Source of the DNA: an uncultured Verrucomicrobiota bacterium
GTDB lineage: Bacteria; Verrucomicrobiota; Verrucomicrobiia; Limisphaerales; UBA9464
Reading direction: 5' to 3'
DNA length: 64,000 nucleotides
NCBI GenBank assembly: GCA_903835555.1
Contig: CAILNN010000292.1
Span: 1,125 to 65,124, forward strand
Positions 23,314 to 37,302 of the stretch are shown here, one piece after another. The notes under the pieces are model-generated. The model saw only the letters and a program-made list of their open reading frames with translations, searched no databases and was not told where the DNA came from. The stretch's first letter is position 1; every line of letters starts with the position of its first letter. Both the position numbers and the translations under genes were made by a program.

Positions 23314-23449
23314 GCCGCGAACCGGAGAGAACGCGAACCGCAGGCAAAGGTAAAGGACGGGGTGCCGATCCTGTGACGGTTTTTGCTGAAGGGATTGCGT
23401 GAGTTTTCGTCGAACATGTCGTAGCCTACGCACCAGCCGATTTACCTTC

Positions 23450-26400
23450 ATGTTCCGACCTTCCAACTTGTGGTCTCGAAGCCTTGGTCCGCTGATTGCG
23501 GGGTTGATGTTTTCATTTTCCGCCTTGGGAGCAGTCGACTTCGGGCGCGATGTGCTCCCGATTTTGGCGGACAAATGCTATCACTGCCACGGTCCGGATG
23601 AATCGGCCCGCAAAGCGAAGCTCCGCTTGGACACCAAAGAAGGTGCTTTCCGAGTGGTTGATGGAAAGGCGGTGATTACAGCTGGAAAAAGCGCGGAAAG
23701 TGAATTGGTGAGGCGCATTCTCAGTACCGATCCCGAGGAGATCATGCCCCCGCCGAAGGCGCATCGCGAACTATCGGCGGACCAACGCGAAACCTTGCGC
23801 CGCTGGGTCGATGAGGGCGCTCGGTGGGGCCAGCATTGGTCGTTTGAGACCATTCGTCCAGGTACCGTGCCGCCACCTTCGACCGGAACGGAGCGCAATG
23901 AGGTCGATTGCTTTGTCTTTCGTCGGCTCGCTCAGGATGGGTGGAAACCCGCCCCAGAAGCGGCACGGTCCCGGTTGATCCGTCGACTCAGCTTTGATCT
24001 CACCGGACTGCCACCGACCCCCGCCGAAGTTTCCGCTTTTGAAGGGGATCGCTCGCCCAATGCCTATGAACACTTGGTTGATCGGTTGTTGGATTCTCCC
24101 GCCTACGGCGAACGCATGGCCGCAGAGTGGCTTGACCTGGCGCGCTACGCCGACACCCACGGCTACCAAAGTGATCGCTACCGGGCGATCTGGCCCTGGC
24201 GCGACTGGGTTATTCACGCCTTCAATTCCAACCTCCCCTTTGATCAGTTTGTCACCTGGCAATTGGCTGGTGATTTGCTGCCCAATCCGACCCAAACTCA
24301 GCGTCTCGCCACGGCGTTCAATCGTATCCACCTTCAAAATGAGGAAGGTGGGATCGTGGAAGAGGAATTCCGGGTTTCCTATGTGGTCGACCGGGTCAAC
24401 ACCTTCGGCACCGCCTTTCTCGGTCTTACACTCGATTGTTGCCGATGCCACGACCACAAATACGACCCTCTGACGCAGAAGGATTATTATCAGCTTTTCT
24501 CCATCTTCCAGAACGTCGATGAGTCGGGACAAAGTGTCTACTTCGGCGACGTCATGCCGGTTCCGACGTTGTTGCTGACGACGCCCAACCAGGATGAAGT
24601 GTTGGCCAAGCTGAAGCGGGATATCGAGCACCAACGCGAGGTCGTGGCTACCACACGGGCCGAGGCGCGACCCCGCTTTGAAGAATGGCTGAAACATCGG
24701 CCCACGGAACCGGCTTTGCCCGGTCTGACCGCCTCGTACGGGTTCGACGAACAGGTCGACGGCCATTTCACCAACCGGGTGGCAGGCGGCAAGCCAGCCA
24801 ATGCTTCGGAGGGTCCCGGCCTCGTCGCGGGCGTTCACGGTCAGGCCCTGGAGCTTTCGGGGGAAAATGGCGTGAGCCTCCCGGGAGCCGGAGCCGTCAC
24901 TCGGGCCGATCCCTTCAGCTATTCCATCACTATTCAACCCACCATTCAGACGTCGCGGCTTCTCGTTTTGCACAAGAGTCGGGCGTGGATGGATGCCGGA
25001 AGCCGGGGATATGAACTCCTGCTGGAGGACGGTCGTCCCGCAGTCGGTCTCCACCACATGTGGCCGGGAAATTCGCTGAAAATACGAGCCACCCGGGCCA
25101 TCCCCACCAATGCCTGGACCCAAATCACCGTGACCTATGATGGTTCCAGTCGGGCTGCCGGTCTTCATCTCTACCTCAACGGCGAACCCGCCGAGGTGGA
25201 GGTGATTCGCGATGGTTTGTGGCGCGACTTCACCTACGGCGGAGACGAGCCGGAGTTAGCCATTGGCTACCGATTCCGTGATAATGGCTTCAAGCAGGGC
25301 AGGGTGGACGAATTGCTTTTCTTTCACCGCGAACTGACCCGACTGGAAGTGGCTGAACTGGCCGGACTTCCCCATCTCCGGGAGGCACTGATGGTCGCAG
25401 AACCCCAATTGACTCCCGTTCAGAGAAATGAGCTGGAGGACTATTACCTCCACACGATCGAAACCAATCATCAAGCGGCCCTAAAGGAACTGGCCCGCTT
25501 ACGACAGGAACAGAATCGCCTGATTGAATCGATCCCTGACCTGATGGTGATGCAGGAGATGGAGAAACCGAAAAATGCCTTTATTCTAAAACGTGGTGCT
25601 TACGATGCACCGGGTGACGAGGTCAGCGGCAATGTGCCGGGCTTTTTGCCTCCCCTGGCACCCGGCATGCCGCAAAATCGCCTGGGCCTGGCTCAATGGT
25701 TGACCGATCAAAGGAACCCGCTGTTTGCCCGCGTAACCGTCAATCGGGCGTGGCAACAAATGTTTGGCAGGGGGCTGGTGGAGACGGCTGAGAACTTTGG
25801 CACCCAAGGGGCCGTTCCGACTCACCCCGAGCTCCTCGACTGGCTCGCCCACGAATTCATGACCACCGGGTGGGATATGAAGGCGCTGCTGCGGAGAATA
25901 GCCCTTTCGGCCACGTATCGTCAGTCATCGACGGCCTCCTCCGAACTTCTGGCGCGAGACCCGGACAATCGCTGGCTCACCCGAGGTCCGGCGCGTCGGC
26001 TGGCAGCGGAAATGTTGCGCGATCAGGCGCTGTCAGTCAGCGGATTGCTTTCTCAGCATGTTGGTGGTCCCAGCGTTCGTCCCTATCAACCCGAAGGATT
26101 ATGGGAATCCGCCGCTAATTCGTCTTATAATCAAGGCCACGAAGAGGACTTGCACCGGCGAAGTCTTTACACCTACTGGAAACGGACAGTGCCCCCTCCC
26201 GCCATGATCACCTTTGATGCAGCAGAGCGAAATGTGTGCGTGGTCCGACGTCAAAGTACGAGCACCCCATTGCAGGCCCTGGTGTTACTCAATGATCCGC
26301 AACTGATAGAGGCGGCACGCTGGACCGGGCAACGGATTCTCCGGGAAGGCGGGACAACACGCGCCACTCAAGTGGACTTTGCCTTCCGTTTGGTGACCGG

Positions 26401-26611
26401 GCGAGCCCCGTCCCAGCGCGAGGTCGAAGTGCTCGAACGACTGTGGCTGGAACAGCAGCAACGTTTTGCCGCCGACCCCGGTGCCACCGCCCAATTGCTG
26501 GCAGTCGGCGAGGCCAAGGTTGACTCCAGCCTGCCCGCCCCGGATCTGGCTGCCACCACTATTCTGGCCCAAGCTCTGCTGAATCACGACGAAGCATTGA
26601 TGCGCCGCTAA
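23450..26611 (+). CDS. PSCyt1 (planctomycete cytochrome c) + DUF1549 (PSCyt2) + LamG-like + DUF1553 (PSD1) protein
   Basis: DVLPILADKCYHCHGPDESARKAKLRLD (PSCyt1); CFVFRRLAQDGWKPAPEA..LIRRLSFDLTGLPPTPAEV (DUF1549); a central LamG-like block (..LHLYLNGEP..); NRLGLAQWLTD..NPLFARVTVNRAWQQMFGRGLV..PTHPELLDWLA (DUF1553). The start is taken at ATG 23450, which gives a signal peptide. Confidence 0.9.
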   Translation: MFRPSNLWSRSLGPLIAGLMFSFSALGAVDFGRDVLPILADKCYHCHGPDESARKAKLRLDTKEGAFRVVDGKAVITAGKSAESELVRRILSTDPEEIMPPPKAHRELSADQRETLRRWVDEGARWGQHWSFETIRPGTVPPPSTGTERNEVDCFVFRRLAQDGWKPAPEAARSRLIRRLSFDLTGLPPTPAEVSAFEGDRSPNAYEHLVDRLLDSPAYGERMAAEWLDLARYADTHGYQSDRYRAIWPWRDWVIHAFNSNLPFDQFVTWQLAGDLLPNPTQTQRLATAFNRIHLQNEEGGIVEEEFRVSYVVDRVNTFGTAFLGLTLDCCRCHDHKYDPLTQKDYYQLFSIFQNVDESGQSVYFGDVMPVPTLLLTTPNQDEVLAKLKRDIEHQREVVATTRAEARPRFEEWLKHRPTEPALPGLTASYGFDEQVDGHFTNRVAGGKPANASEGPGLVAGVHGQALELSGENGVSLPGAGAVTRADPFSYSITIQPTIQTSRLLVLHKSRAWMDAGSRGYELLLEDGRPAVGLHHMWPGNSLKIRATRAIPTNAWTQITVTYDGSSRAAGLHLYLNGEPAEVEVIRDGLWRDFTYGGDEPELAIGYRFRDNGFKQGRVDELLFFHRELTRLEVAELAGLPHLREALMVAEPQLTPVQRNELEDYYLHTIETNHQAALKELARLRQEQNRLIESIPDLMVMQEMEKPKNAFILKRGAYDAPGDEVSGNVPGFLPPLAPGMPQNRLGLAQWLTDQRNPLFARVTVNRAWQQMFGRGLVETAENFGTQGAVPTHPELLDWLAHEFMTTGWDMKALLRRIALSATYRQSSTASSELLARDPDNRWLTRGPARRLAAEMLRDQALSVSGLLSQHVGGPSVRPYQPEGLWESAANSSYNQGHEEDLHRRSLYTYWKRTVPPPAMITFDAAERNVCVVRRQSTSTPLQALVLLNDPQLIEAARWTGQRILREGGTTRATQVDFAFRLVTGRAPSQREVEVLERLWLEQQQRFAADPGATAQLLAVGEAKVDSSLPAPDLAATTILAQALLNHDEALMRR

Positions 26612-26641
26612 ACCATGAACTGCACTTCTGTTAATTTTCAA

Positions 26642-28078
26642 ATGAACCGCCGCGATTTCTTTGGGCGGTTCGGTTACGGCTTGGGTGGTGCCGCCCTCTG
26701 GTCGCTCATGTCCCGCGACCGGGTGCTGGGCGCCACTGATCCGTCGATAATCGCCTCGCCGACTTCCTCAGGCCTGATCCAGCCGTTGCATTTCAGGGCA
26801 AAAGCCAAGCGGGTCATCTATTTGTTCATGAGCGGTGGGCCATCCCAGTTGGACTTGTTTGACTACAAGCCGACGCTAAACAAACACCAGGGCGAAGACC
26901 TCCCCGACAGTGTGCGTAGGGGCCAGCGTCTCACCGGGATGACCAACAATCAGGCCCGATTACCTTTGGCCGGAAGCGTCTTTAATTTTCAGCAACACGG
27001 CCATTCCGGGGCCTGGATTAGCGAGTTGCTGCCGTGGACGGCCAAGGTCGCCGATGAACTCTGTTTCATCAAATCGATGCATACCGAGGCGATCAACCAC
27101 GATCCCGCCATTACCTTTTTTCAAACCGGTTCCCAATTGGCCGGACGTCCCAGCATGGGAGCATGGGTGAGTTACGGTTTGGGCAGCGGCAATGAAAATC
27201 TCCCCGCTTTTGTGGTGCTCATCTCCAAGGAGCGCATCGATCAGCCGTTGTACTCCCGTCTCTGGGGCAATGGCTTTCTTCCCAGCACCTATCAGGGAGT
27301 CCAATTCCGGAGCGGTCGGGAACCAGTCTTATTTCTCCAGAATCCGTCCGGGGTCAGTGCGGCCGGACGACGCGACTTGCTCGATCGATTGGCGGAACTC
27401 GATGCGTTGCAATACCAGGACATCGGCGATCCCGAGATCAATTCCCGAGTGTCGCAGTACGAAATGGCCTACCGCATGCAAACCAGCGTGCCGGAAGTCA
27501 TTGATATCTCCAAGGAACCGGACTCCGTCTATGAATTGTACGGTCCAAATGCCAAGATTCCGGGAACGTTTGCCGCGAATTGTTTGTTGGCCCGTCGATT
27601 GGCCGAGCGCGATGTCCGATTCATCCAATTGTACCATCCCGGCTGGGACCATCACGGCGGTCTTCCGGGCGGAATCCGGCGGCAATGCCAGGATATCGAC
27701 CAGCCATGCTACGCCCTGTTAACCGACCTAAAGCAGCGCGGACTTTTGGATGAGACCCTCGTTGTCTGGGGCGGTGAATTTGGTCGGACCAACTATTCAC
27801 AGGGAAAATTAACCGCCACCGATTACGGTCGCGATCATCATCCTCGATGTTTCACCGCCTGGATGGCCGGAGCCGGAATTCGTCGGGGCATGTCGTATGG
27901 TTCGACCGATGATTTTGGATACAATCTCGAGGAAAATCCGGTCCACGTGCACGATTTGCAGGCCACCATCATGCAGCAACTGGGGATCGATCACACCCGC
28001 CTGACCTTCAAATTCCAAGGCCGCTACTTCCGCCTGACCGACGTGCACGGCGAAATTGTGAAGAGCATTTTAGCGTAG
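26642..28078 (+). CDS. DUF1501 (sulfatase-fold) protein with twin-arginine signal
   Basis: MNRRDFFGRFGYGLGGAALWSL, then ..VIYLFMSGGPSQLDLFDYKP.. and ..GGEFGRT..GRDHHP... The ATG at 26615 is possible, but the Tat-like N-terminus begins at 26642. Confidence 0.9.
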   Translation: MNRRDFFGRFGYGLGGAALWSLMSRDRVLGATDPSIIASPTSSGLIQPLHFRAKAKRVIYLFMSGGPSQLDLFDYKPTLNKHQGEDLPDSVRRGQRLTGMTNNQARLPLAGSVFNFQQHGHSGAWISELLPWTAKVADELCFIKSMHTEAINHDPAITFFQTGSQLAGRPSMGAWVSYGLGSGNENLPAFVVLISKERIDQPLYSRLWGNGFLPSTYQGVQFRSGREPVLFLQNPSGVSAAGRRDLLDRLAELDALQYQDIGDPEINSRVSQYEMAYRMQTSVPEVIDISKEPDSVYELYGPNAKIPGTFAANCLLARRLAERDVRFIQLYHPGWDHHGGLPGGIRRQCQDIDQPCYALLTDLKQRGLLDETLVVWGGEFGRTNYSQGKLTATDYGRDHHPRCFTAWMAGAGIRRGMSYGSTDDFGYNLEENPVHVHDLQATIMQQLGIDHTRLTFKFQGRYFRLTDVHGEIVKSILA

Positions 28079-28384: not shown

Positions 28385-29053
28385 CTAACCCGAGGCCACC
28401 CGCCAGGCCGAAGCCACCGCCATGATGAGGGAAATGATGTTAAAGATGGAAAGTTCCCCAAAGAGAATAAAAAACGATGCGCTGACCGCCAAGAAGGCTA
28501 TTACCGAGGCAACCACGCCCAAAGAATTGTCGGTACCACGTGCCATCGTGCGGGCTCCAATACCGGTCAGGTATCCGGTGATGACGCCAAAGAGGGGAAA
28601 GCGAAACCCAATGGCAATGGACAGGCCTATCAACAGTCCTGAACCCAGCATGGCACCGAGAATTCCTCCAACGATGCCACGACTCAGGCTGAACATGGGT
28701 GCGTCTGGCATCCGTTCGAGATAAGTCCCGGACTGCGCCCGCTGTGTGACTGCGGAGGAAGCAGGAGATGGCGGAGGAGCTAAAACCGCTGGGGACACCG
28801 TGACTCCCGAAGAAGAACCTGTGGCCGATTGAGGAGCGGTGGATGAAATCCGTAAGGCACCAGGCTTTGGCATTGGGGTGGTCGGAGGAGATGTTGGAGT
28901 CGGGAGATGCCGGGCAATAAAGGCATTTGCCGCCGCTGTTCCGTCCGAGCCGCAGTTTGGACATTGAACCTCCACCGCCATTTGGCCATCGACGGGCTCG
29001 ACGTCAAAGGCGTACTGCTGTCCACAGTTGCATTCTAATTTGACATCGATCAT
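28385..29053 (-). CDS. Hypothetical membrane protein: N-terminal Zn-ribbon, Pro/Ser-rich linker, glycine-zipper transmembrane region
   Basis: ECNCGQQYAFD..VQCPNCGSDG (CxC...CxxC); a low-complexity linker PTPTSPPTTPMPKPG...; then GIVGGILGAMLGSGLLIGLSIAIGF..FGVITGYLTGIG and further hydrophobic helices. Transcribed divergently from the retron-like locus. Confidence 0.6.
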   Translation of the reverse strand: MIDVKLECNCGQQYAFDVEPVDGQMAVEVQCPNCGSDGTAAANAFIARHLPTPTSPPTTPMPKPGALRISSTAPQSATGSSSGVTVSPAVLAPPPSPASSAVTQRAQSGTYLERMPDAPMFSLSRGIVGGILGAMLGSGLLIGLSIAIGFRFPLFGVITGYLTGIGARTMARGTDNSLGVVASVIAFLAVSASFFILFGELSIFNIISLIMAVASAWRVASG

Positions 29054-29253
29054 GGGTACGCGCCGAGTTGGGTTCTAGTGTCGTGTTTAAGTTCTAATTT
29101 TCCCGAGATAATTCAATGCTGTCCAAATTCTGCAAGAAGATAATGTGCAATCATCTCATGGATGACAGGGCTCCGATAATCGACAGCCACCCATGTCGGA
29201 CGCTCGGTTTTTATCTCGACACCTTCGATGTGTTGTGATAGCAAGTGAAATCG

Positions 29254-29407
29254 GACGATGCTCCAAGCAGGTGAACGCAACTGGTTTGCGCTTCATCTCT
29301 CCGGGGCTACCCCGGGGCAACTCGATACTGACACATCACACCGCGCGACGAGCCGTCCGCCAGGCGGACCCCGCGTCACGCAGGACCAGACGCGTTGGAG
29401 CATCGTC
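29254..29407 (+). ncRNA. Candidate retron msr-msd non-coding RNA (bracketed by a1/a2-type inverted repeats)
   Basis: Perfect 13-nt inverted repeat: GACGATGCTCCAA (29254-29266) / TTGGAGCATCGTC (29395-29407). Internal hairpins: 29271-29295, 29301-29315, 29355-29369, and 29372-29394 (or the alternative 29343-29381). The left arm is followed by A-G-C. The right arm ends 10 nt before the RT ATG. The boundaries are inferred, not measured. Confidence 0.55.
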
Positions 29408-29416
29408 TCGATTCCC

Positions 29417-30763
29417 ATGGAGCCCATTGATCTCGCCGCACGCAAGCTGGCAAGATTGCTACTGGCAGGACCCTTTACCGTTCGCGAAGCGACAAATCGA
29501 GTTCGCGCCAGTTTGGGGCGTTGTCCGCGCTGGTTGTCCCGGGGATTGACCCGGTGGGTGCCGGAGATCGGCGAGGGCGCTCGTCCTCGTCAACAACGTG
29601 TCCAGGCGCGCGTTCGGTCTAATGCGGGTTTTCAGACCGCTTTTCATTCACGTCAACTACGACTCCCTGCAAGTCCGCCGATGTCGGCCATGTTGCCTGC
29701 TTCAGGTGCCCCGCAGACTTGGAACCTTCCGAAACTGACTTCCACTCATGATCTCGCACACTTTCTCCATTTGACAATAGGTGAATTGGAATGGTTTGCC
29801 GATCTCAAATCAATCAATTCCAAGACGCTGAAAGCACGTCTCACTCACTATCGGTATCGCTGGCAACCGAAACGAGTTGGTAGTGCCCGATTAATTGAGT
29901 CACCCAAACGGCGCCTAAAGCAACTCCAACGGCATATCCTGCATGCGATTCTGGACCGAATCCCACCTCACGAAGCTGCCCACGGCTTTCGTTCCGGACA
30001 TTCGATTCATAGTTTTGTCGCCCCTCATGTCGGGCAGGAAATGGTCCTGCGACTCGACCTTCGGGATTTCTTTCCAACCATTTCCCGAGCACGGGTCATC
30101 GCGCTGTTTCTAACGGCGGGATATCCGGAACCCGTCGCGCTGCGGTTGGCGGGCATTTGCACCAATGGTGTACCCAGCGCTGTTCTGGACCCGGGTCCGA
30201 AGGTCGCGGCGTTGCCTTTTCCAGAGCAGTTCCGATTGCGCAAACTTTATCAGGCACCCCATCTTCCCCAAGGTTCACCCAGTTCTCCCTCTTTGGCCAA
30301 TCTAGCCGCCCATCGTCTGGATTGTCGGTTTTCTGGACTTGCCCATTCCGCTGGTGCCCACTACACCCGATATGCCGACGATTTGGTATTTTCCGGCGGT
30401 AAAGATTTCTCTCGAAGCGCCGAGCGATTTGCCGTGCTTGCCTGCGCAGTCGCGCTTGAGGAGGGTTTTGAAGTTCAAACCCGCAAGACGCGCCTGATGC
30501 GCCAATCTGTTTCCCAACACGCCGCCGGGATGATTCTCAATCAGAAGGCCAATCTTCCACGGCGTGAATACGAGTCCCTCAAAGCCATCCTTCATAACTG
30601 CGTCCGCTTTGGGCCCGCCAGTCAGAATCGAGAGGCCCACCCCTATTTCCAAGCTCACCTGCTGGGAAGGATTGCACATCTCGCGACCGTCAATCCCGGC
30701 CGCGCCAACAAACTGCGCTCCCAATTCGACTTGATTGATTGGGGAGTATCATCGTCTGAGTAG
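29417..30763 (+). CDS. Retron-type reverse transcriptase with ~100-140 aa N-terminal extension
   Basis: HYRYRWQPKRVGSARLIESPKRRLKQLQRHIL, AAHGFRSGHSIHSFVAPHVG, LRLDLRDFFPTI, LPQGSPSSPSLANL, YTRYADDLVFS (YADD at 30371-30382) and AAGMILNQK. It is colinear by eye with retron Ec86 RT. The start is taken at ATG 29417 (MEPIDLAARK). The track ORF starts at ATG 29258, inside the putative ncRNA. Confidence 0.9.
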   Translation: MEPIDLAARKLARLLLAGPFTVREATNRVRASLGRCPRWLSRGLTRWVPEIGEGARPRQQRVQARVRSNAGFQTAFHSRQLRLPASPPMSAMLPASGAPQTWNLPKLTSTHDLAHFLHLTIGELEWFADLKSINSKTLKARLTHYRYRWQPKRVGSARLIESPKRRLKQLQRHILHAILDRIPPHEAAHGFRSGHSIHSFVAPHVGQEMVLRLDLRDFFPTISRARVIALFLTAGYPEPVALRLAGICTNGVPSAVLDPGPKVAALPFPEQFRLRKLYQAPHLPQGSPSSPSLANLAAHRLDCRFSGLAHSAGAHYTRYADDLVFSGGKDFSRSAERFAVLACAVALEEGFEVQTRKTRLMRQSVSQHAAGMILNQKANLPRREYESLKAILHNCVRFGPASQNREAHPYFQAHLLGRIAHLATVNPGRANKLRSQFDLIDWGVSSSE

Positions 30764-30937: not shown

Positions 30938-31495
30938 GTGGCACTCGATTTAGAACAGGTTCGGCAAATTCTCCAGCGCATCCGGCAAGGCGATATTGAC
31001 GCCTATGCCGAATTGGTCGTGGCCTATCAATCCGATGTTTGGAAGGTTGCAGCCGCCATTCCGGGCGGTATGCGCGAAATTGAGGAATTGGTCCAGCAAA
31101 CCTTCGTCCAAGCCTATCAACAATTGGAAACCTTCGATTCGCGCCGGGACTTCGGTCCCTGGATCAAAGAAATCGCGCGCAATCAGACCCGGATGGAACT
31201 GCGGCGGGCCATGCGTGAATCGTCACGCCTGAATCGATATTATGAAGAATGGATGCGGGATCTGAACGCTGAGGAAAGCGGGAATACCGAGGCGCTGGAG
31301 GAAGCCCTCCGCACCTGTCGCCAGGAACTTTCCGAACACTTGGACCAGATCGTCGCCCAGCGGTACGAACAGGCGCTCAGTTTTGAGGACATCGCCCGCC
31401 AAATTGGACGCTCGGTCGCCGCCACCCGCCAGTTGATCTCGCGGGCCCGCGTCGCCCTGCGCGACTGTGTTGCCCGGAAGGGAGGCTTCGCGTGA
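30938..31495 (+). CDS. ECF-type sigma-70 family RNA polymerase sigma factor
   Basis: Region 2 (AYAELVVAYQSDVWKVAA..FVQAYQQLETFD..FGPWIKEIARNQ) and region 4 (LSFEDIARQIGRSVAATRQLISRARVALRDC). GTG start. Confidence 0.9.
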   Translation: MALDLEQVRQILQRIRQGDIDAYAELVVAYQSDVWKVAAAIPGGMREIEELVQQTFVQAYQQLETFDSRRDFGPWIKEIARNQTRMELRRAMRESSRLNRYYEEWMRDLNAEESGNTEALEEALRTCRQELSEHLDQIVAQRYEQALSFEDIARQIGRSVAATRQLISRARVALRDCVARKGGFA

Positions 31496-33021
31496 ATCGA
31501 CCGGAGGAATTGATGTCGAACGCAGTGGATGGCCTCCTGACCGATGCCGAGCGTCTGGAGTTGGAGAGGCTGTTGGATGCCGATCCCGAGGCCCTGGAAA
31601 AATGGCGACAACTGATCAGGATTGAAGCAGGGCTTCGTTCCGCCCGGGTTCGATTTCCCTTTGCTGTCACGGTTCCTCAAGCGATTCGCGCGGAACACGA
31701 ACGCCGTGTGGCTCAAGGGGTTCTCCAGCAGATTCGATCGCTGCCCGACACGTCCGTTTCGCGCAGTTCCTCTTGGCTTGCCCTTTGCGAGCATTGGTTC
31801 CGGCCTATTCGACGGCGGACCGTTTGGGCCACGGGTTTTGTCGCAATTGCGATCCTTTCAACGCTGATATGGCTTGGCAGCGATAACCATCCTCGCGATC
31901 TGGCGGTGGAACAAGCCCGGAACCTGGAGGTGCGTCGCGGTTGGTGGTGGCGTTCCGTGAAGGCCGGGGAACAACTTTCAAGCCGTTGGTCACTACGTAC
32001 CGGACCCCTTGGGAGTGCACGGCTTCAGATTTTATCGGATTCAACCACGGTCGTTCTGGAAGAGCAAACGAAGGCGGACTTCATTGAAAACTCCCTGGCA
32101 AAGCAGTGGTCGATCAAGCAAGGGCGCATCCAGGTTCATGCGGCCCACCAGGTGCCGGGACATCCGATAGTGGTCCGAACCCCCCATGGCCATGCCGAGG
32201 TGGTGGGTACCACCTTTTCGCTCAGTGCGCGTCCAACAACCAGTTGGCTCCGTGTGGACGATGGTGCCGTTCAGTGGTCCAGTCTGGGAGATAATAGGTC
32301 CTTGCTCGTGCCCGCAGGGCAATTTGTCGCGGCTGGACATGGGCCGATCGGGCTCTTAATGGCAGCGGACCCGGAGATGCTTCGAATTCCCTTCACCCTC
32401 GATCTTCAGCGTTCATTTCAGGATGGAGACGGCGCGTGGAATACCGACGGTTCCGCACTGGTGCAGACCAAAGTGTCGCATGTCCCCATGACCAACGCCA
32501 TTTGGGGGACCCCCGCATCGCCCGGAAGCGCGTATGTCATCGAAGCGCGGACACCCGAAAGCATCGAGATACGCTGTGACGTTGAGGTTCAAAGGACCAT
32601 CCACGACGAAGTGGCTCGCTGGATTTGGCCGCAAAACTTTGGACTGCGGTTTTACCTCGGGCGCTATGATTTTCAACTCAACGCCGAAGGAGGCGGAGTC
32701 GCTGCAACAGCATTGCTGAAGTTCGGAGGAGGCAGTCCTAAAGCCTCGGATTCACCCGTCGTCATCCATGGCCAGACGCATTCGTCTCTGCCTGCAGCGG
32801 GCGTCGGCCTCCACCATTTTCGCCTTCAGCTTTGGCGACAACCCGACGGTCACTGCCGAGCCTTGGGAAAGGTCTGGACTGGATCAGGAGAGCCGAACGA
32901 ATGGCAAATCAACGCCGAATTTAACCGGAGCGAGTCACTGACCCAGGTGGGCATGCAAACCGTTTCCTGCGCAGCCCGATTTTCCCAATTTCAAACCTTC
33001 TTGATCGAATCGTTGCAATAG
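31492..33021 (+). CDS. Anti-sigma factor, FecR-domain transmembrane protein
   Basis: GTGA overlap with the sigma gene; one TM helix (VWATGFVAIAILSTLIWLG); a FecR-like block (..LRTGPLGSARLQILSDSTTVVLEE..GRIQVHA..IVVRTPHGHAEVVGTTFSL). Confidence 0.8.
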   Translation: MNRPEELMSNAVDGLLTDAERLELERLLDADPEALEKWRQLIRIEAGLRSARVRFPFAVTVPQAIRAEHERRVAQGVLQQIRSLPDTSVSRSSSWLALCEHWFRPIRRRTVWATGFVAIAILSTLIWLGSDNHPRDLAVEQARNLEVRRGWWWRSVKAGEQLSSRWSLRTGPLGSARLQILSDSTTVVLEEQTKADFIENSLAKQWSIKQGRIQVHAAHQVPGHPIVVRTPHGHAEVVGTTFSLSARPTTSWLRVDDGAVQWSSLGDNRSLLVPAGQFVAAGHGPIGLLMAADPEMLRIPFTLDLQRSFQDGDGAWNTDGSALVQTKVSHVPMTNAIWGTPASPGSAYVIEARTPESIEIRCDVEVQRTIHDEVARWIWPQNFGLRFYLGRYDFQLNAEGGGVAATALLKFGGGSPKASDSPVVIHGQTHSSLPAAGVGLHHFRLQLWRQPDGHCRALGKVWTGSGEPNEWQINAEFNRSESLTQVGMQTVSCAARFSQFQTFLIESLQ

Positions 33022-33096
33022 CGCTCCTGCTTATCCATGAAATCACCCACTATCCTCGGTAAGAATGAATCGCATTTCCGGCAGCGCACCCATTGT

Positions 33097-36000
33097 ATGA
33101 CACATCGGTTGACTCTCGTTGGCCTGTTCTTCGCCATCCTGGTGTGGTTTGGCCCACGCCTATTCGCCGGTGTGGGCGGTGGCTTCTCTCAAGCCGGACT
33201 GCGCAGTGCCTATTACACCAATCTTCAATTCTCCGGATCCCCTGCTTTCGCGCGGCGGGAAGTACGCCTCGATTTTCGTCCCAGCCTACTCCCGCCCGGC
33301 GGTGCGGGCCAGGTGGGTGATAGTCCGTTTCGCCAGGTCCCGGCATCCAGCTTTTCCGTGGTTTGGTCCGGCAGTGTCATCCCCCGGTTTTCCGAAACCT
33401 ACCAGTTTTCGGTCCAGGCACTCGACGGAGTTCAAGTGCGACTTCGAACCTCAGGCACAACTAACTGGTTCGTGGTGATTGACCCGTCGTCATTCCACAG
33501 CGGACCGGTCGGTGGTGCCTATGCCATGACCGCCGGCACCAACTACGACATCGAGGTTCGATTGTCCCATAGCGGTGGTGCGTGGCAGGCTCAATTGTGG
33601 TGGTCAAGCCCGAGCACCCCGTTGGAGGTTATCGATCCCCTGACTCAATCGGGTCTGAACAATCCCGATTGGACCGCCGGATTCACCGATATCGTTCGGG
33701 GTGCGCGCAATAGCTGGGAGCCAGCCAACGGTGGGTCCCGTCCGGCCATGGACACCAACGGGTGGCCGATGGGTGATGGCTCCTATGTTTTTCAAGAAAG
33801 CCTGAATCAAGGTCTGGACCTCGATCCGCTCATGCAAGGGAAAATCAGCTTTACTTTTAATGGCAAGGCCAGCGTTTCCATCACTGGAAACGTCCGGGGA
33901 AATTCCCTGGTGTCGTACTATGATCAGGTCAGCAATCAGACCGCTGGCAGCTTCTCCGCCATTAAAAATGGTTGGAATGCCTCTTATTTTACCGTCACCA
34001 ACGCGCGTCGGAATGGACAGGCCAATGGTCCGCCCGGCATCACCCACCTTCGGCTGATGCGGCCAACCAGTCCGCTGGCTACCACCAGTCACAATCCAAC
34101 GAACACCCTATTCACCCCGCAACTGCTGGACGCCGTCACTCACTTCACCGTGGTGAGGCATCAATACGTGGCCAATCAGCAGCGCGATTGGTCCGAACGA
34201 ACCTTGCCTACCTACTTCAATCAAGGAGGTGGCTTCAGCAGTCCTCCGCACTATGGCAATGGCGGAAATTCGGATAATGGAATCGCTTGGGAATTCAAGG
34301 TCCTGCTCGCCAACGAAACCGGCTCTGACCTGATGATCAGCCTGCCACCGGTGGCTTCCGGCCATGATGCATCGGAAACGGAGAGCTACATCTGGAAGCT
34401 GGCCAACCTCATCCGCTTCGGCTCGGACGGAGTAGAACCGTATACCAATGTCGTTGCCAATCCGGTCTACCCGCCGCTCAACTCCAACCTCCGGGTCTAT
34501 TTGGAGTTGGGCAATGAACTTTGGAACTCGGGCGGAATATTCAATGTTGACTGGTCGAATATTAATTCATTGATGATCGCAGACTTGGTCGCCAATAACG
34601 CCGATTATCAAGCGATCAACTACGACGGCTTACCCACCAATCAGGATGCCAATGGCTACTACCCCAGCATGAATACCTGGCGGTTCCGGAAAATCGCTCT
34701 GCGCTTGATGCAAATCAGCGACATTTTCCGGGCGGTCTTCGGAGACGACTCCATGGGCAGTCGGGTACGCACCCTCTACGAATGGCAATATGCCAATCTC
34801 AATGACACCGCCGGACTTGCCCTGACCTTTGTCGATCGCTATTTCAACAACGGGGATGGTCAAGCACATGTCGCTCAACCGCATCCCGTCTCCCGCTGGC
34901 TTTGGGGCGGCGGTGGTGCGACCTATTACGGCGCGGTCAACGGCAATGGGCTTACCACGCTTTTACCCGATCCGTCCTTCGGTATTCCCAATTTTCCCGA
35001 CCCTGGCTACCACCCAGGTCCATCGGGATCGTCCTGGCAATTCACCGGCACGTCCGGTATCGCACTTAGCGGAACGGGGACAACGGACATCCCGCCGGCC
35101 TATTCCGGCCATCAGATGGCTTATCTGACCGACAAAGCCTCTATTTCTACTTCCGTCACCTTCCCAACCAACAGCATCTCCCCCTACTTTGGCATTTCGT
35201 TCAAGGCGGTGAATCGCGTGCCGTCGGGCTCTGCGACGGCTGATCAGGAAAACCTGCGCGTGTACTTGGATGGGACCAACGACATCACCGCAAGAACCTT
35301 CAGTCAGGGAAATGGATACACACCAGTCGCCTATGACGCCGGAGACCCGTGGTACGCCAACAATGTATTCTGGACCCGTTCTCAATACTATTACACCCGT
35401 TCTTTTCAAGTGACCCCGGGTTCCACCCATTCGATCACCGTTCGTGGGCTGGGCGATGTCAACCATCCGGGTGTGACCGGGCAAACCGCATTTGTCGGCG
35501 AAGTACGCGTGACCAGTGTGGACCGCATCTTTGAAGATGGCATTCCCGGAGGCGGCGAAGCCACCGGACAACCGGTGGGCGAGGGGATTCGCGACACCAT
35601 GAACGTTGAGGCCAGCTGGGCCAAGGCCTTCGGGCTTCAACAATTGTCCTACGAGGGCGGATGGTCACTGGGAGGCGACGACGGCGGTTCCTGGATTCAA
35701 CTCCAAGCCAAATATGGCGACGCCCGCACCGGGGATGCCCAGCGCCTGTTCATGGACTATTTCGCCCAGGCTGGCTCGGCAGTCAACGTATTCGGAACCT
35801 ACGCCCAGTGGCCTAGCTGGGGTGACTATTACGCTGAACAGGGTCTGCTAAACGTCGGAAAGTATCCCATCGTCCAGGGAATTGATGACGCCGCAAATCA
35901 ATTGCCACCCGAACCCGTCAATGGCGTCCTCCTCCCCGCCGTGTTGACTCCGGGACAAGCCAGTCTGGCAGACCGGGCGGATACCACGCAGGGGCGGATC

Positions 36001-37302
36001 ACGAGTCCGGGAGGCTGGTTGAATTGGAACATCATCGCGCCGGATTCCGGGATTTATGCGATCGCGCCCGTATTGGCTTCGGGAACCGGTTCAACCGTGC
36101 TGTTGGTCGATGATGCGGCGCTGGCCTCCGGTCCCGGCGTTTCAACCCCCGTGTGGCTGACCCGCGGATTGCATAGTGTGAAACTTCGAAGCGTGTCGAC
36201 GTCCCCAGTGGAGGTGACCAAACTGACGGTGTCGATTCCAGGTGCCCCAGCCAGTCCGACCTGGATTTCTGCCATCGATGGAGACGGATCGGCCAACCTG
36301 ACCTGGGAAGCGGTGTCCGGTGCCACAACGTATGAAGTACGTTACGGAATATCACCCGCAACCTATACCGTGGCGCGGTCATCGCTTTCCGTGACCAATC
36401 TCGTCATCACTGGTCTACAAAACGGCCAGCAATACTATTTCGTCGTCCTCGCCGGCAACGATCACGGATTGAGCCTGCCTTCGAGTGAACGCGGACTCAT
36501 TCCCGTCGGTATCGGCCAACCCGCGCCCCTGGCAATCTGGGAATTCAACGGAGCCATCGGGAATGAAGTGACCGCCACCGCCGCATCAGCTTCTTCGCGA
36601 GTTGTCACCACCCCTCTGGTGCGTGGCACCGGGTTGACGCCGAGCACCAGCGATTGGGCGGCTGGCATGCGGGCCGATCGTTTTGGCAGCGAGCCATCCG
36701 CAACCCAGGGACACACCTATGGGACCACCCTGAGCCAGGGATTATCCAAGCAGCAGTTCGACCAATTCTCCATCACCGCTGCACCGGGGCAGTTGATTTC
36801 CCTGAAGCAACTTTCCTTCCGCGCCTTCTTTCAAAATGGGGCTGGCGCTGCCGGTATCACCTATAGCACCGATGGCGTTCATTTCAGCCCCGGTATCTCC
36901 GCCAGCGGATCGGCTTCCACGTCGCAGGCACCCTGGGTCGTTGACCTATCAAATCAACCGAGCCTGCAATCGACCGCCGCCACCGTTACTTTTCGGATTT
37001 GTCTCTATGGCCTCGGAGGATATCAGTTCAGCGGGCTGGGTGATCAATCTGGCCCGGATATCGTCGTCACGGGCACATTGCGACCCGTGCAACTGCCACT
37101 GAAGATTTCGACCAACCATTTAAACGGTGTCCAAATCTCATGGCCCGATGTGGGACCCGGCCCCGCTCTTCAAACCAAACACAATTTAAGCTCCAGCCAA
37201 CCATGGATGTCGGTCACCAACACGCCTGCGATCTCCGATGGCGAACAGTCGGTAACTCTCCCAGTTTCTGCAGCAGATGCCTTTTTTCGACTTTTTGAAT
37301 GA
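33097..37302 (+). CDS. Giant secreted protein: PA14 + putative clan GH-A-like glycoside hydrolase region + FN3 + unknown C-terminal domains + beta-sandwich tail
   Basis: Signal peptide MTHRLTLVGLFFAILVWFG; PA14 (GLRSAYYTNLQFSG..VVWSG..ETYQF..LDGVQVRL..AQLWWSSPS); YLELGNELWNSGG (NE acid/base-like motif); FN3 (LTWEAVSGATTYEVRYG..GLQNGQQYYFVV). The hydrolase assignment is tentative. Confidence 0.85.
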   Translation: MTHRLTLVGLFFAILVWFGPRLFAGVGGGFSQAGLRSAYYTNLQFSGSPAFARREVRLDFRPSLLPPGGAGQVGDSPFRQVPASSFSVVWSGSVIPRFSETYQFSVQALDGVQVRLRTSGTTNWFVVIDPSSFHSGPVGGAYAMTAGTNYDIEVRLSHSGGAWQAQLWWSSPSTPLEVIDPLTQSGLNNPDWTAGFTDIVRGARNSWEPANGGSRPAMDTNGWPMGDGSYVFQESLNQGLDLDPLMQGKISFTFNGKASVSITGNVRGNSLVSYYDQVSNQTAGSFSAIKNGWNASYFTVTNARRNGQANGPPGITHLRLMRPTSPLATTSHNPTNTLFTPQLLDAVTHFTVVRHQYVANQQRDWSERTLPTYFNQGGGFSSPPHYGNGGNSDNGIAWEFKVLLANETGSDLMISLPPVASGHDASETESYIWKLANLIRFGSDGVEPYTNVVANPVYPPLNSNLRVYLELGNELWNSGGIFNVDWSNINSLMIADLVANNADYQAINYDGLPTNQDANGYYPSMNTWRFRKIALRLMQISDIFRAVFGDDSMGSRVRTLYEWQYANLNDTAGLALTFVDRYFNNGDGQAHVAQPHPVSRWLWGGGGATYYGAVNGNGLTTLLPDPSFGIPNFPDPGYHPGPSGSSWQFTGTSGIALSGTGTTDIPPAYSGHQMAYLTDKASISTSVTFPTNSISPYFGISFKAVNRVPSGSATADQENLRVYLDGTNDITARTFSQGNGYTPVAYDAGDPWYANNVFWTRSQYYYTRSFQVTPGSTHSITVRGLGDVNHPGVTGQTAFVGEVRVTSVDRIFEDGIPGGGEATGQPVGEGIRDTMNVEASWAKAFGLQQLSYEGGWSLGGDDGGSWIQLQAKYGDARTGDAQRLFMDYFAQAGSAVNVFGTYAQWPSWGDYYAEQGLLNVGKYPIVQGIDDAANQLPPEPVNGVLLPAVLTPGQASLADRADTTQGRITSPGGWLNWNIIAPDSGIYAIAPVLASGTGSTVLLVDDAALASGPGVSTPVWLTRGLHSVKLRSVSTSPVEVTKLTVSIPGAPASPTWISAIDGDGSANLTWEAVSGATTYEVRYGISPATYTVARSSLSVTNLVITGLQNGQQYYFVVLAGNDHGLSLPSSERGLIPVGIGQPAPLAIWEFNGAIGNEVTATAASASSRVVTTPLVRGTGLTPSTSDWAAGMRADRFGSEPSATQGHTYGTTLSQGLSKQQFDQFSITAAPGQLISLKQLSFRAFFQNGAGAAGITYSTDGVHFSPGISASGSASTSQAPWVVDLSNQPSLQSTAATVTFRICLYGLGGYQFSGLGDQSGPDIVVTGTLRPVQLPLKISTNHLNGVQISWPDVGPGPALQTKHNLSSSQPWMSVTNTPAISDGEQSVTLPVSAADAFFRLFE

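What the first reader, a model, noticed from the sequence alone, without database searches (positions are those of the whole stretch)
29254..30763. Retron-like locus: a 13-nt perfect inverted repeat brackets a hairpin-rich 154-nt RNA directly upstream of an Ec86-like reverse transcriptase, with no recognisable effector in cis
Seen in the sequence:
- GACGATGCTCCAA (29254-29266) is the exact reverse complement of TTGGAGCATCGTC (29395-29407).
- The 128 nt between the arms are packed with short GC hairpins: 29271-29295 TGAACGCAA/TTGCGCTTCA with one bulge; 29301-29315 CCGGGG-CTA-CCCCGG; 29355-29369 GTCCG-CCAGG-CGGAC; 29372-29394 CGCGTC-N11-GACGCG.
- The left arm is followed immediately by A-G-C. 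As I remember it, that is the context of the branching G in Ec86.
- The right arm ends 10 nt before ATG 29417, which opens an RT ORF colinear by eye with retron Ec86 RT (LPQGSPSSPSLANL, YTRYADDLVFS, and others).

Established knowledge: retrons consist of an a1/a2-bracketed msr-msd RNA, an RT and an effector, and they act in anti-phage defence.

Unusual here:
- Nothing resembling a known retron effector lies on the same strand. I see no NDT, TOPRIM, ATPase, HNH or protease, and no co-directional 2TM gene. The next gene is an ECF sigma factor 175 nt downstream.
- The only nearby candidate partner is transcribed divergently (28385-29053).
- The host is a PVC-type bacterium, a group in which I know of no experimentally characterised retron.

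The locus may therefore be an undescribed retron architecture, either self-contained in an RT with an N-terminal domain or using an unconventional partner.
Basis: partly seen in the sequence, partly recalled or inferred. Interest (0 to 1): 0.85.

Follow-up and report, generated by a model that had tools for sequence, protein, structure and literature searches.

The report
Stand-alone clade 11 retron (ncRNA plus RT)
This is a real two-part retron, a conserved structured RNA plus its reverse transcriptase with no partner gene, but it belongs to the "clade 11" stand-alone retrons catalogued in 2020, so it is a new member of a known kind whose function is still unknown.

Summary
The 13-nt perfect inverted repeat (29254-29266 / 29395-29407) brackets a 154-nt structured RNA that ends 10 nt before a retron-type RT gene (29417-30763).

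- **RNA conserved:** A covariance model built from relatives finds the same RNA, same strand, directly 5' of the RT, in 77 of 78 assessable homologous loci. These span Acidobacteriota, PVC, Proteobacteria, Myxococcota and Actinomycetota. 29 of 34 base pairs show compensatory changes.
- **RNA not coding:** The segment is not translated, so the 501-aa ORF from ATG 29258 is a gene-caller artefact.
- **RT is retron-type:** PADLOC, PDB sequence search and Foldseek all place it among retron RTs.
- **No partner gene:** No neighbouring gene is conserved. The divergent Zn-ribbon/TM gene is reduced to a 12-codon remnant in the closest relative.
- **Already described:** The RNA aligns with published "clade 11" retron ncRNAs. 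Mestre et al. 2020 described that clade as stand-alone msr-msd/RT cassettes. Khan et al. 2024 tested it and found weak RT-DNA output; one RT-DNA was sequenced.

Function remains unknown.

The parts
29037..29253 (+). Upstream leader shared with the closest relative; the presumed promoter region of the cassette. It overlaps the first 17 nt of the divergent gene.
   Evidence: Nucleotide homology with L081 starts at 29037. The leader 29054-29253 is 135/200 identical. In relatives a TAnnnT -10 box lies 5-30 nt upstream of the ncRNA in 68/76 loci against ~5.8 expected. No canonical sigma-70 site was found on the + strand in the window itself.
29254..29266 (+). a1 arm of the terminal stem. It can extend to 29250 with one bulge.
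   Evidence: Perfect 13-nt inverted repeat. All 12 modelled pairs of this stem show compensatory changes across 78 sequences. The extension appears in the MFE fold.
29267..29267 (+). Predicted branching (priming) guanosine.
   Evidence: A13 and G14 of the ncRNA are invariant in A2. The position directly 3' of a1 matches the retron rule (Khan 2024). Branching itself was not tested.
29269..29298 (+). msr hairpin 1, variable in sequence and conserved in presence.
   Evidence: MFE fold. A hairpin of at least 5 bp occurs in this segment in 77/78 family members, median dG -15.3 kcal/mol, median z -2.7.
29299..29317 (+). msr hairpin 2, CUCCGGGG-CUA-CCCCGGGG: the signature element of the clade and the likely RT recognition and stop element.
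   Evidence: 99% of cells are paired. Three pairs are invariant and four have compensatory changes. The hairpin is identical in published clade 11 ncRNAs. The sequenced RT-DNA of Mestre-1840 ends inside its 3' strand.
29318..29342 (+). Single-stranded linker, part of the predicted msd template.
   Evidence: Unpaired in the consensus structure. The homologous segment is covered by the RT-DNA of Mestre-1840.
29343..29381 (+). msd stem-loop. Outer helix 29343-29350 pairs with 29374-29381 (one C-A mismatch). Apical helix 29355-29360 pairs with 29364-29369.
   Evidence: RNAalifold consensus. 13 of these 14 pairs show compensatory changes, with 93-95% of cells paired.
29382..29394 (+). Conserved single-stranded 3' segment (AGGACCAGACGCG). 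G29394 is the predicted first templated base.
   Evidence: G141 of the ncRNA, directly 5' of a2, is invariant. In Mestre-1840 the cDNA starts at the nucleotide just 5' of a2.
29395..29407 (+). a2 arm of the terminal stem.
29417..30763 (+). Retron clade 11 reverse transcriptase, 448 aa. Residues 1-77 form a clade-specific five-helix N-terminal domain, ~78-100 a conserved linker, and ~140-445 the RT core (YADD at 319-322).
   Evidence: PADLOC RT_other 1.2e-143 and RT_outgroup 2.1e-136. Pfam RVT_1. PDB Ec86 RT 1.1e-30. Foldseek top 18 hits are all retron RTs. AF2 pLDDT 95.4. The start codon is supported by in-frame stops in 61/77 relatives and an ATG ~14 nt after the ncRNA. dN/dS is 0.11.

Best explanation
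The locus 29254-30763 is an intact, self-contained two-component retron of RT clade 11. [quoted passage not shown] 2020.

**Shown here.**
1. A 154-nt non-coding RNA has a covarying terminal a1/a2 stem, two msr hairpins (one variable, one invariant GGGG-NUA-CCCC) and an msd stem-loop. It has an invariant A-G directly after a1 and an invariant G directly before a2.
2. A retron-clade RT follows, with an intact catalytic core and a clade-wide N-terminal helical domain. It is under purifying selection.
3. No gene is linked to the cassette, in any orientation, across 80 relatives.

**Inferred by homology.**
- The RT binds the invariant hairpin.
- The a1/a2 duplex presents the 2'-OH of G29267 to the active site.
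- cDNA is templated from G29394 back through the msd stem-loop and stops in the 3' strand of the invariant hairpin (~29312). That would give a branched msDNA of roughly 80 nt.

**Speculative: what it is for.** The cassette is accessory: it is rare among species, has no conserved synteny, and is shared across phyla. It nevertheless sits among housekeeping genes and keeps its RNA sequence almost unchanged. My estimates are:
- about 45%: the RT-msr-msDNA particle works through unlinked, widely conserved host or phage factors that recognise the conserved msDNA hairpin;
- about 25%: the N-terminal domain is the output module;
- about 20%: the role is not in defence;
- about 10%: something else.
For: **ncRNA.**
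- Inverted repeat and fold.
- The alignment of 20 relatives has 25/34 covarying pairs.
- The model R1 hits 77 loci plus the window at E < 1e-6. Each hit is a single copy on the + strand directly 5' of the RT.
- 94.8% of cells are paired, 29/34 pairs carry double changes, and 433 cells changed on both sides against 87 in shuffles and ~70 in slid controls.

**Not coding.**
- An in-frame stop lies inside the element in 61/77 loci.
- Against the closest relative the ncRNA is 148/154 identical, while 52% of synonymous sites in the RT gene differ. 4 of the 6 differences fall on "codon position 2" of the ATG 29258 frame.

**RT.** all point to retron RTs.

**Clade 11 identity.** The census table labels terminals 1807-1894 as clade 11 with no subtype. 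Their ncRNAs align with the window's and share the signature hairpin and msd apex.

**cDNA boundaries.** 87 nt of the Mestre-1840 RT-DNA map exactly to ncRNA nt 56-142.

**No partner.**
- The largest non-RT neighbour cluster occurs in 5/81 loci.
- Neighbour strands are random: 35+/42- downstream and 38+/33- upstream.
- No Pfam family recurs in more than 3/66 upstream or 2/68 downstream neighbours.
- No PADLOC family recurs.
- The closest relative lies between recD and moaA.

**Own promoter.**

**N-terminal domain.** It is homologous across the clade: hhalign probability 99%, E = 8.8e-18.
Against: - msDNA production was not tested for this locus.
- In E. coli, clade 11 relatives gave 0 to 0.02 times the Eco1 RT-DNA signal by PAGE, and one gave no RT-DNA at all. 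Production may need host factors or may be naturally low.
- The window lacks the canonical -10 box seen in most relatives.
- The covariation counts were made on an alignment fitted to the model, which favours the structure. The independent MAFFT/RNAalifold result agrees with them.
- Clade 11 membership rests on the ncRNA alignment, PADLOC labels and shared taxa, not on a phylogeny with the Mestre reference RTs.
- The functional part of the statement has no direct evidence.
Confidence: 0.8

Rival explanations
1. It is a classical tripartite retron whose effector is the divergently transcribed Zn-ribbon / multi-TM protein (28385-29053). This would be a type IV-like membrane effector in an unusual orientation.
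For: - The gene is adjacent and shares the intergenic region.
- It has an N-terminal zinc ribbon (weak Pfam hit, 18.9 bits against a cut-off of 30.3) and C-terminal hydrophobic helices.
- Nucleotide homology with the closest relative includes its first codons.
Against: - No homologue lies next to any of the 80 related cassettes.
- In the closest relative (83% RT identity) only a 12-codon remnant, MIDVKFASHCGQ, abuts recD, while the RT (dN/dS 0.11) and the ncRNA (96% identical) stay intact.
- It has no PADLOC hit.
Confidence: 0.03
2. The 154-nt segment is the coding 5' end of a 501-aa RT that starts at ATG 29258, as public gene calls have it. The hairpins would then be incidental.
For: - The frame is open from 29258.
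- Gene callers annotated 501-aa products for this protein and two close relatives: P0001, P0002 and P0004.
Against: - The frame is closed by a stop inside the element in 61/77 relatives.
- Family proteins are ~440 aa and start ~14 nt after the element.
- The substitution pattern against L081 is not codon-like, and the segment is far more conserved than synonymous sites.
- Base-pair covariation is strong.
Confidence: 0.02
3. The RT is not a retron RT. Instead it would be another ncRNA-dependent defence RT (UG/Abi such as DRT2 or DRT9, a DGR RT, or a group II intron-like RT). A DRT2-like enzyme would make concatemeric cDNA that encodes a protein.
For: - It is a stand-alone RT plus an upstream structured ncRNA with no effector, which resembles the DRT2 layout.
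- There are weak NCBIfam hits to Drt2 (31.7 bits against a cut-off of 390) and to the group II RT.
Against: - The PADLOC retron models score 450-480 bits.
- All 16 PDB sequence hits and the top 18 Foldseek hits are retron RTs. DRT2, DGR and group II RTs rank far lower.
- Stop-free concatemer frames in the template are not enriched: 27 and 33 of 78 against 28-29 in shuffles.
- The sequenced RT-DNA of a clade member is a single unit bounded as in retrons.
Confidence: 0.03
4. It is a decaying orphan: a former tripartite retron that lost its effector and no longer functions.
For: - No effector is present.
- Clade relatives give weak RT-DNA output in E. coli.
- One relative (L084) has lost the signature hairpin.
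Against: - dN/dS is 0.11 at dS 0.89, and the ncRNA is 96% identical over the same divergence.
- The catalytic motifs are intact.
- The whole clade lacks an effector yet keeps the ncRNA with compensatory changes, across at least 591 genomic loci in several phyla.
- The promoter is conserved.
Confidence: 0.04

Closest known systems
Mestre et al. 2020 RT clade 11 stand-alone retrons (e.g. Mestre-1840 Nakamurella multipartita, Mestre-1875 Myxococcus xanthus DZ2, Mestre-1823 Arthrobacter)
   Same: - Same ncRNA family: the signature CUCCGGGG-NUA-CCCCGGGG hairpin, the same msd apex and the same a1/a2 layout.
- Same two-component architecture with no subtype or effector.
- Relatives from the same genera (Myxococcus, Arthrobacter, Amycolatopsis) were recovered with the window RT.
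- The N-terminal domain is homologous.
   Different: - The host is a PVC-type bacterium. The clade was first called "essentially restricted to Actinobacteria" and later extended to Pseudomonadota and Acidobacteriota.
- The arm sequence class (…GCUCCAA|G) is shared with Acidobacteria and PVC members and differs from the GC-rich arms of actinobacterial members.
- It is only 41-48% identical to the actinobacterial RTs.
Retron-Eco1 (Ec86), type II-A3
   Same: - Best solved-structure relative: E = 1.1e-30, Foldseek TM 0.82-0.84.
- Shared motifs: LPQG(A/S)PSSP, YTRYADDL, the region X histidine (H204 aligned with Ec86 NATPH) and the region Y glycine (G371 aligned with Ec86 VTG).
- The ncRNA lies 5' of the RT.
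   Different: - 24-25% identity.
- Ec86 has an NDT-like effector, and this locus has none.
- This RT has ~100 extra N-terminal residues and a ~30-aa insertion (about 249-282).
- Region X is FVAPH rather than NAxxH, and region Y is AAG rather than VTG.
Retron-Eco5 (Ec107)-like branch of clade 2
   Same: [quoted passage not shown]
   Different: - A different RT clade: PADLOC RT_Ec107-like scores 168 bits against 478 for RT_other.
- A different ncRNA.
- Mostly Gammaproteobacteria and Bacillota, and host-associated.
Type XIII retrons (Mx162, Mx65, Sa163; clade 10)
   Same: - The next-best PADLOC RT model after the clade's own: RT_XIII, 294 bits.
- They also occur in Myxococcota and Planctomycetota.
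   Different: - Type XIII has linked ARM/HEAT-repeat and SWIM/winged-helix genes. None is found here.
- Their ncRNAs are much longer.

Membership tests
Retron (general) | RT belongs to the retron clade of prokaryotic RTs. | tested here: met
   - PADLOC retron models score 478 and 453 bits.
- All PDB sequence hits and the top 18 Foldseek hits are retron RTs.
- The NCBIfam retron_St85_RT hit (162.8 bits) is below its 235-bit cut-off, which is expected for a different clade.
Retron (general) | Region X (NAxxH, H most conserved) and region Y (VTG, G most conserved) in the RT. | tested here: inconclusive
   The most conserved residues are present and invariant in the family: H204 aligns with the H of Ec86 NATPH, and G371 with the G of Ec86 VTG. 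The full motifs differ: FVAPH and AAG.
Retron (general) | Adjacent same-strand ncRNA with terminal inverted repeats (a1/a2) enclosing msr hairpins and an msd stem-loop. | tested here: met
   It was found in 77 of 78 assessable relatives, and 29/34 pairs covary.
Retron (general) | Conserved priming G directly 3' of a1 and an opposing G directly 5' of a2. | tested here: met
   G14 (29267) and G141 (29394) are invariant in A2. Their role in branching is inferred.
Retron (general) | Production of 2'-5' branched msDNA. | not testable with these tools
   There is only indirect evidence from clade relatives: the Mestre-1840 RT-DNA was sequenced, and Mestre-1875 supports editing.
Retron (general, tripartite definition) | A cognate effector gene or fused effector domain. 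| tested here: not met
   - No conserved neighbour.
- The N-terminal domain has no catalytic-type invariant residues and no PDB fold match.
- An effector encoded in trans cannot be excluded.
Mestre RT clade 11 stand-alone retron | ncRNA of the clade 11 structural families. | tested here: met
   Direct alignment with six published clade 11 ncRNAs shows the shared invariant hairpin and msd apex. Which sub-family it belongs to (A or B) was not determined.
Mestre RT clade 11 stand-alone retron | RT placed in clade 11 by phylogeny with the reference set. | not tested
Support is indirect:
- the PADLOC RT_other and RT_outgroup models cover the full length, N-terminal domain included;
- relatives come from the same genera as the clade 11 references.
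Mestre RT clade 11 stand-alone retron | No associated protein-coding gene. | tested here: met
UG/Abi DRT2-like (ncRNA plus RT, rolling-circle cDNA encoding a protein) | UG2-type RT, and a template giving a stop-free concatemer ORF. | tested here: not met
   Drt2 model 31.7 bits against a cut-off of 390. The DRT2 structure ranks 21st. Endless ORFs are not enriched.

The most novel reading that the evidence does not exclude
Clade 11 retrons may be truly effector-less. In that reading the RT, with its clade-specific N-terminal five-helix domain, and its sequence-conserved ~80-nt msDNA hairpin form the whole functional unit. The msDNA itself would be the active agent, for example as a decoy or ligand for a conserved host or phage nucleic-acid enzyme. 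Alternatively the unit may serve a cellular role outside defence. Either way the mode of action would differ from every characterised retron, all of which guard a toxic effector.
Probability: 0.3. Interest if true: 0.7.

Novelty: new member of a known kind. Interest (0 to 1): 0.3.

Why it matters
Every mechanistically understood retron is a guard for a toxic effector. Clade 11 is a large chromosomal lineage: at least 591 loci among the ~186,000 species genomes scanned, spread over several phyla. It keeps the RNA and the RT under strong constraint with no linked effector, and nobody knows what it does. This locus adds no new architecture.

The comparative results here do give concrete handles for experiments on the clade:
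- exact ncRNA boundaries and structure;
- the predicted priming G and the template limits;
- the correct RT start codon;
- a dedicated promoter in most relatives;
- a universal N-terminal domain of unknown fold;
- unusually high msd sequence conservation.

The results also flag a systematic annotation error, in which the ncRNA is absorbed into the RT ORF.

Tried and rejected
- **Rfam:** no family matches the ncRNA at E ≤ 10 beyond noise, and nothing reaches gathering score anywhere in the window. The clade's ncRNA is not in Rfam 15.
- **DRT2-like concatemer ORF:** no enrichment.
- **N-terminal domain, fold:** Foldseek against the PDB gave nothing significant; the best E-value is 1.8.
- **N-terminal domain, other contexts:** a phmmer search of 1.84 billion representatives gave 8 hits. 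The three short hits whose sequences I read are fragments of the same RT family. One further hit, also read, is a spurious Cys-rich repeat protein. The domain was therefore not seen in any other architecture.
- **Conserved neighbours:** clustering, strand bias, Pfam and PADLOC scans of the immediate neighbours all found nothing recurrent.
- **Mobile elements:** no clade member occurs in phage records. Among plasmid records the clear clade-level matches are on Burkholderia megareplicons and three actinobacterial plasmids.
- **Composition:** no foreign-island signal around the locus.
- **Promoter and terminator scan of the window:** no + strand promoter upstream of the ncRNA and no terminator after the RT.
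- **Organism name:** cluster look-up returned no names. PVC affiliation rests on the PSCyt1/PSCyt2/PSD1 plus DUF1501 gene pair and on the nearest RT relatives.
- **Literature:** two searches for work on effector-less retrons found nothing beyond Mestre 2020, Khan 2024 and the 2026 SPIRE preprint.
- **Predicted msDNA as ssDNA:** its fold is no more stable than shuffles, z = 0.06. Support for the stem comes from covariation, not from energy.
Full report
**1. Observation**

GACGATGCTCCAA (29254-29266) and TTGGAGCATCGTC (29395-29407) are perfect reverse complements, 128 nt apart. This is the only perfect inverted repeat of at least 13 nt with separated arms in the 64-kb window. By my own arithmetic about 0.4 such repeats are expected by chance, so the repeat alone proves little.

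The region folds far better than shuffled sequence: -81.7 kcal/mol, z = -5.1. ATG 29417 opens a 448-aa ORF with an RVT_1 domain. Downstream lie an ECF sigma factor and a FecR-type anti-sigma gene. Upstream, on the other strand, lies a Zn-ribbon/multi-TM gene.

**2. The RNA is real, conserved and non-coding**

- A protein search found a very large family of ~440-aa RTs that cover the query end to end.
- A scan of one genome per species returned at least 591 confirmed loci, and 80 were fetched. They come from Acidobacteriota, Verrucomicrobiota, Planctomycetota, Beta-, Gamma-, Alpha- and Deltaproteobacteria, Myxococcota and Actinomycetota.
- A simple search for perfect inverted repeats already found arms at about -170 and -10 relative to the RT start in 33 loci. 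Many have arm sequences that differ from the window's yet remain complementary.
- A MAFFT alignment of 20 of these elements gave an RNAalifold consensus of 34 pairs, 25 of them with compensatory changes.
- A covariance model built from that alignment hits 77 of the 80 loci plus the window at E < 1e-6. Each hit is a single copy on the RT strand, directly 5' of the RT. Two of the three misses are contigs cut inside the RT gene. The third, L079, gives a partial hit.
- On the 78 sequences 94.8% of cells are paired and 29/34 pairs have changes on both sides. 433 cells changed on both sides, against 87 in shuffles and about 70 when partners are slid by 1-3 columns. That alignment is fitted to the model, which favours the structure, but the independent result agrees.
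- A further, poorly alignable hairpin between a1 and the invariant hairpin is present in 77/78 sequences.

The resulting architecture is:
- a1/a2 stem;
- invariant A-G;
- variable hairpin 1;
- invariant hairpin 2 (CUCCGGGG-NUA-CCCCGGGG, 29299-29317);
- a ~25-nt linker;
- a two-helix stem-loop (29343-29381);
- a conserved 13-nt single strand ending in an invariant G (29394);
- a2.

The element is not translated. The RT frame carries a stop inside it in 61 of 77 relatives, and an ATG usually follows ~14 nt after it. Against the closest relative (L081, 83% protein identity) the RT gene has dS 0.89 and dN/dS 0.11. Over the same divergence the ncRNA is 148/154 identical, and four of its six differences fall on "codon position 2" of the ATG 29258 frame. 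The 501-aa products in public databases (P0001, P0002, P0004) are therefore gene-caller artefacts.

Most relatives have a -10 box just upstream of the element. TAnnnT occurs in 68/76 loci against ~5.8 expected, and TGnTAnnnT in 33/76 against 0.3 expected. The box ends 10-14 nt before the model start. The RNA therefore has its own promoter, with transcription starting at about a1. The window itself lacks a canonical box.

**3. The RT**

- PADLOC's best models are RT_other (1.2e-143) and RT_outgroup (2.1e-136, labelled retron). Both cover the N-terminal region. RT_XIII follows at 6.4e-88.
- All 16 PDB sequence hits are retron RTs, with Ec86 best at 1.1e-30.
- The AF2 model is confident (pLDDT 95.4). 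Its top 18 Foldseek hits are retron RTs (Ec86 TM 0.82-0.84). Group II, DRT2 and DGR RTs rank lower.
- The catalytic YADD, the LPQG motif, the region X histidine (H204) and the region Y glycine (G371) are invariant in the family. The full region X and Y motifs read FVAPH and AAG instead of NAxxH and VTG.
- Residues 1-77 form a five-helix bundle, followed by a conserved Pro/Gly-rich linker. The domain has no significant PDB fold match. It was not found outside this RT family. It is nonetheless homologous across the whole clade, including actinobacterial and myxococcal members (hhalign 99%, E = 8.8e-18).
- The invariant and near-invariant residues of that domain are Ala, Leu, Gly, Arg, Trp and Pro. 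No Asp, Glu, His, Cys or Ser is conserved there. This argues for a binding role rather than an enzymatic one.

**4. No partner gene**

- Clustering all ORFs within ±6 kb of 81 cassettes gave no non-RT cluster in more than 5 loci.
- The immediate neighbours have random orientation.
- The neighbours form a housekeeping assortment, including KARI, queuosine synthesis, Dus, SAICAR synthetase, aminotransferases, UDG and GST. No Pfam family recurs in more than 3 of 66-68 loci. No PADLOC family recurs.
- The closest relative sits between recD and moaA. Its homology with the window covers only 29037-30747.
- That relative retains just a 12-codon remnant of the window's divergent Zn-ribbon gene. The gene is therefore dispensable for the cassette.
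- No clade member was found in phage records. The clear clade-level matches among plasmid records are on Burkholderia megareplicons and three actinobacterial plasmids.
- The local composition is unremarkable.

**5. Comparison with what is known**

Mestre et al. 2020 (PMC7736814) defined 11 retron RT clades. They found msr-msd structures in clade 11 and noted stand-alone (msr-msd)-RT cassettes in a branch of clade 2 and in clade 11. They called clade 11 "essentially restricted to Actinobacteria" and speculated about domestication.

A 2026 preprint (10.64898/2026.05.14.725207) used the two clade 11 covariance models (A and B). It found clade 11-A in Pseudomonadota, Actinomycetota and Acidobacteriota and rated the lineage as low novelty.

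Khan et al. 2024 list terminals 1807-1894 as clade 11 without subtype and print their ncRNAs. These align with the window's RNA, sharing the same invariant hairpin and msd apex. L053 from Myxococcus matches the M. xanthus DZ2 entry closely. The window element is therefore a clade 11 retron.

The experimental data for the clade are thin:
- Mestre-1840 gave 0 by PAGE, but its RT-DNA was sequenced.
- Mestre-1875 gave 0.022 times the Eco1 signal and 1.27% human-cell editing.
- Mestre-1856 gave nothing.

I mapped the Mestre-1840 RT-DNA. 87 nt match ncRNA nt 56-142 exactly. That span runs from the nucleotide just 5' of a2 back into the 3' strand of the invariant hairpin. The remaining 5'-terminal nucleotides match the a1 strand up to the conserved A-G, which is compatible with read-through at a branch. 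By homology the window's template is ~29312-29394, about 83 nt. Template length is tightly constrained in the family at 76-83 nt.

**6. Mechanism**

Shown:
- the RNA structure;
- the retron RT;
- the absence of a linked gene;
- purifying selection;
- a dedicated promoter in relatives.

Inferred by homology:
- priming from the 2'-OH of G29267;
- templating from G29394;
- a stop at hairpin 2;
- a branched msDNA of about 80 nt with a conserved hairpin.

Function is unknown. The cassette is accessory and moves between contexts and phyla, as defence genes do. Three other features are atypical of defence systems, which usually diversify:
- it is not in defence islands;
- it has no effector;
- its RNA, including the msd apex, keeps nearly the same sequence across phyla.

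I favour an RNP that acts through unlinked conserved factors which recognise the msDNA (~45%). I rate the N-terminal domain as output module at ~25% and a role outside defence at ~20%.

A DRT2-like coding concatemer is not supported.

**7. Verdict**

The claim of an undescribed architecture is not. This is a new PVC-hosted member of the known, functionally uncharacterised clade 11 stand-alone retrons.

Noticed in passing
L081:5700-5801 (minus strand), compared with window 29020-29053: The closest relative keeps only the first ~12 codons (MIDVKFASHCGQ) of a homologue of the window's divergent Zn-ribbon/TM gene. The remnant runs straight into the 3' end of recD. The synteny breakpoint therefore lies inside that gene, while the retron cassette next to it is intact.
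   Followed up: yes
L084:1622-1747 (locus of P0005, 67% identical RT): This relative has the a2 arm and the msd stem-loop, but its 5' half has diverged. The invariant GGGG-NUA-CCCC hairpin is missing, a1 is imperfect, and the model scores only 34.6 bits. A PIN-domain gene lies directly upstream. It may be a decaying or rearranged cassette, or an assembly artefact, because it comes from a single metagenome contig.
   Followed up: partly
window 29258-30763; P0001, P0002, P0004: Public gene calls for this protein and its two closest relatives start at the ATG inside the a1 arm. That gives 501-aa products which absorb the whole ncRNA. It looks like a systematic annotation error for this subgroup.
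   Followed up: yes
L001-L080, 5-30 nt upstream of each ncRNA: A -10 box (TAnnnT in 68/76 loci, extended TGnTAnnnT in 33/76) sits at a fixed distance upstream of the ncRNA, most clearly in Acidobacteriota. The window and several other PVC loci lack a canonical box.
   Followed up: partly
arm sequences; L001-L080: There are two classes of terminal-stem sequence. One is …GCUCCAA|G…CG|UUGGAGC…, found in Acidobacteriota, PVC and some Proteobacteria. The other has GC-rich arms such as GUGCGGC…, found in Actinomycetota, Myxococcota and other Proteobacteria. They may correspond to the published clade 11-A and 11-B ncRNA families. I did not determine which is which.
   Followed up: no
window 23399-28078: A PSCyt1/PSCyt2/PSD1 (DUF1549/DUF1553) gene is followed by a DUF1501 gene.
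   Followed up: partly
window 30938-37302: An ECF sigma factor, a FecR-type anti-sigma protein and a 1421-aa secreted-type protein with an fn3 domain lie in a row on the + strand. It is an ordinary ECF regulatory cluster and is unrelated to the retron, since it is not found next to any relative.
   Followed up: partly
plasmid records CP101281.1, NZ_CP091014.1, NZ_CP101526.1, NZ_CP091309.1: Clade members (~50% identity) sit on 0.9-1.4 Mb non-mobilizable Burkholderia replicons. In two of the four records no feature is listed under the match.
   Followed up: no
window 30050-30064/30197-30211, 30520-30531/30693-30704, 29991-30001/30121-30131: Three imperfect inverted repeats (87-92% complementary) lie inside the RT coding region. 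I saw no sign that they are more than chance in GC-rich coding sequence.
   Followed up: no
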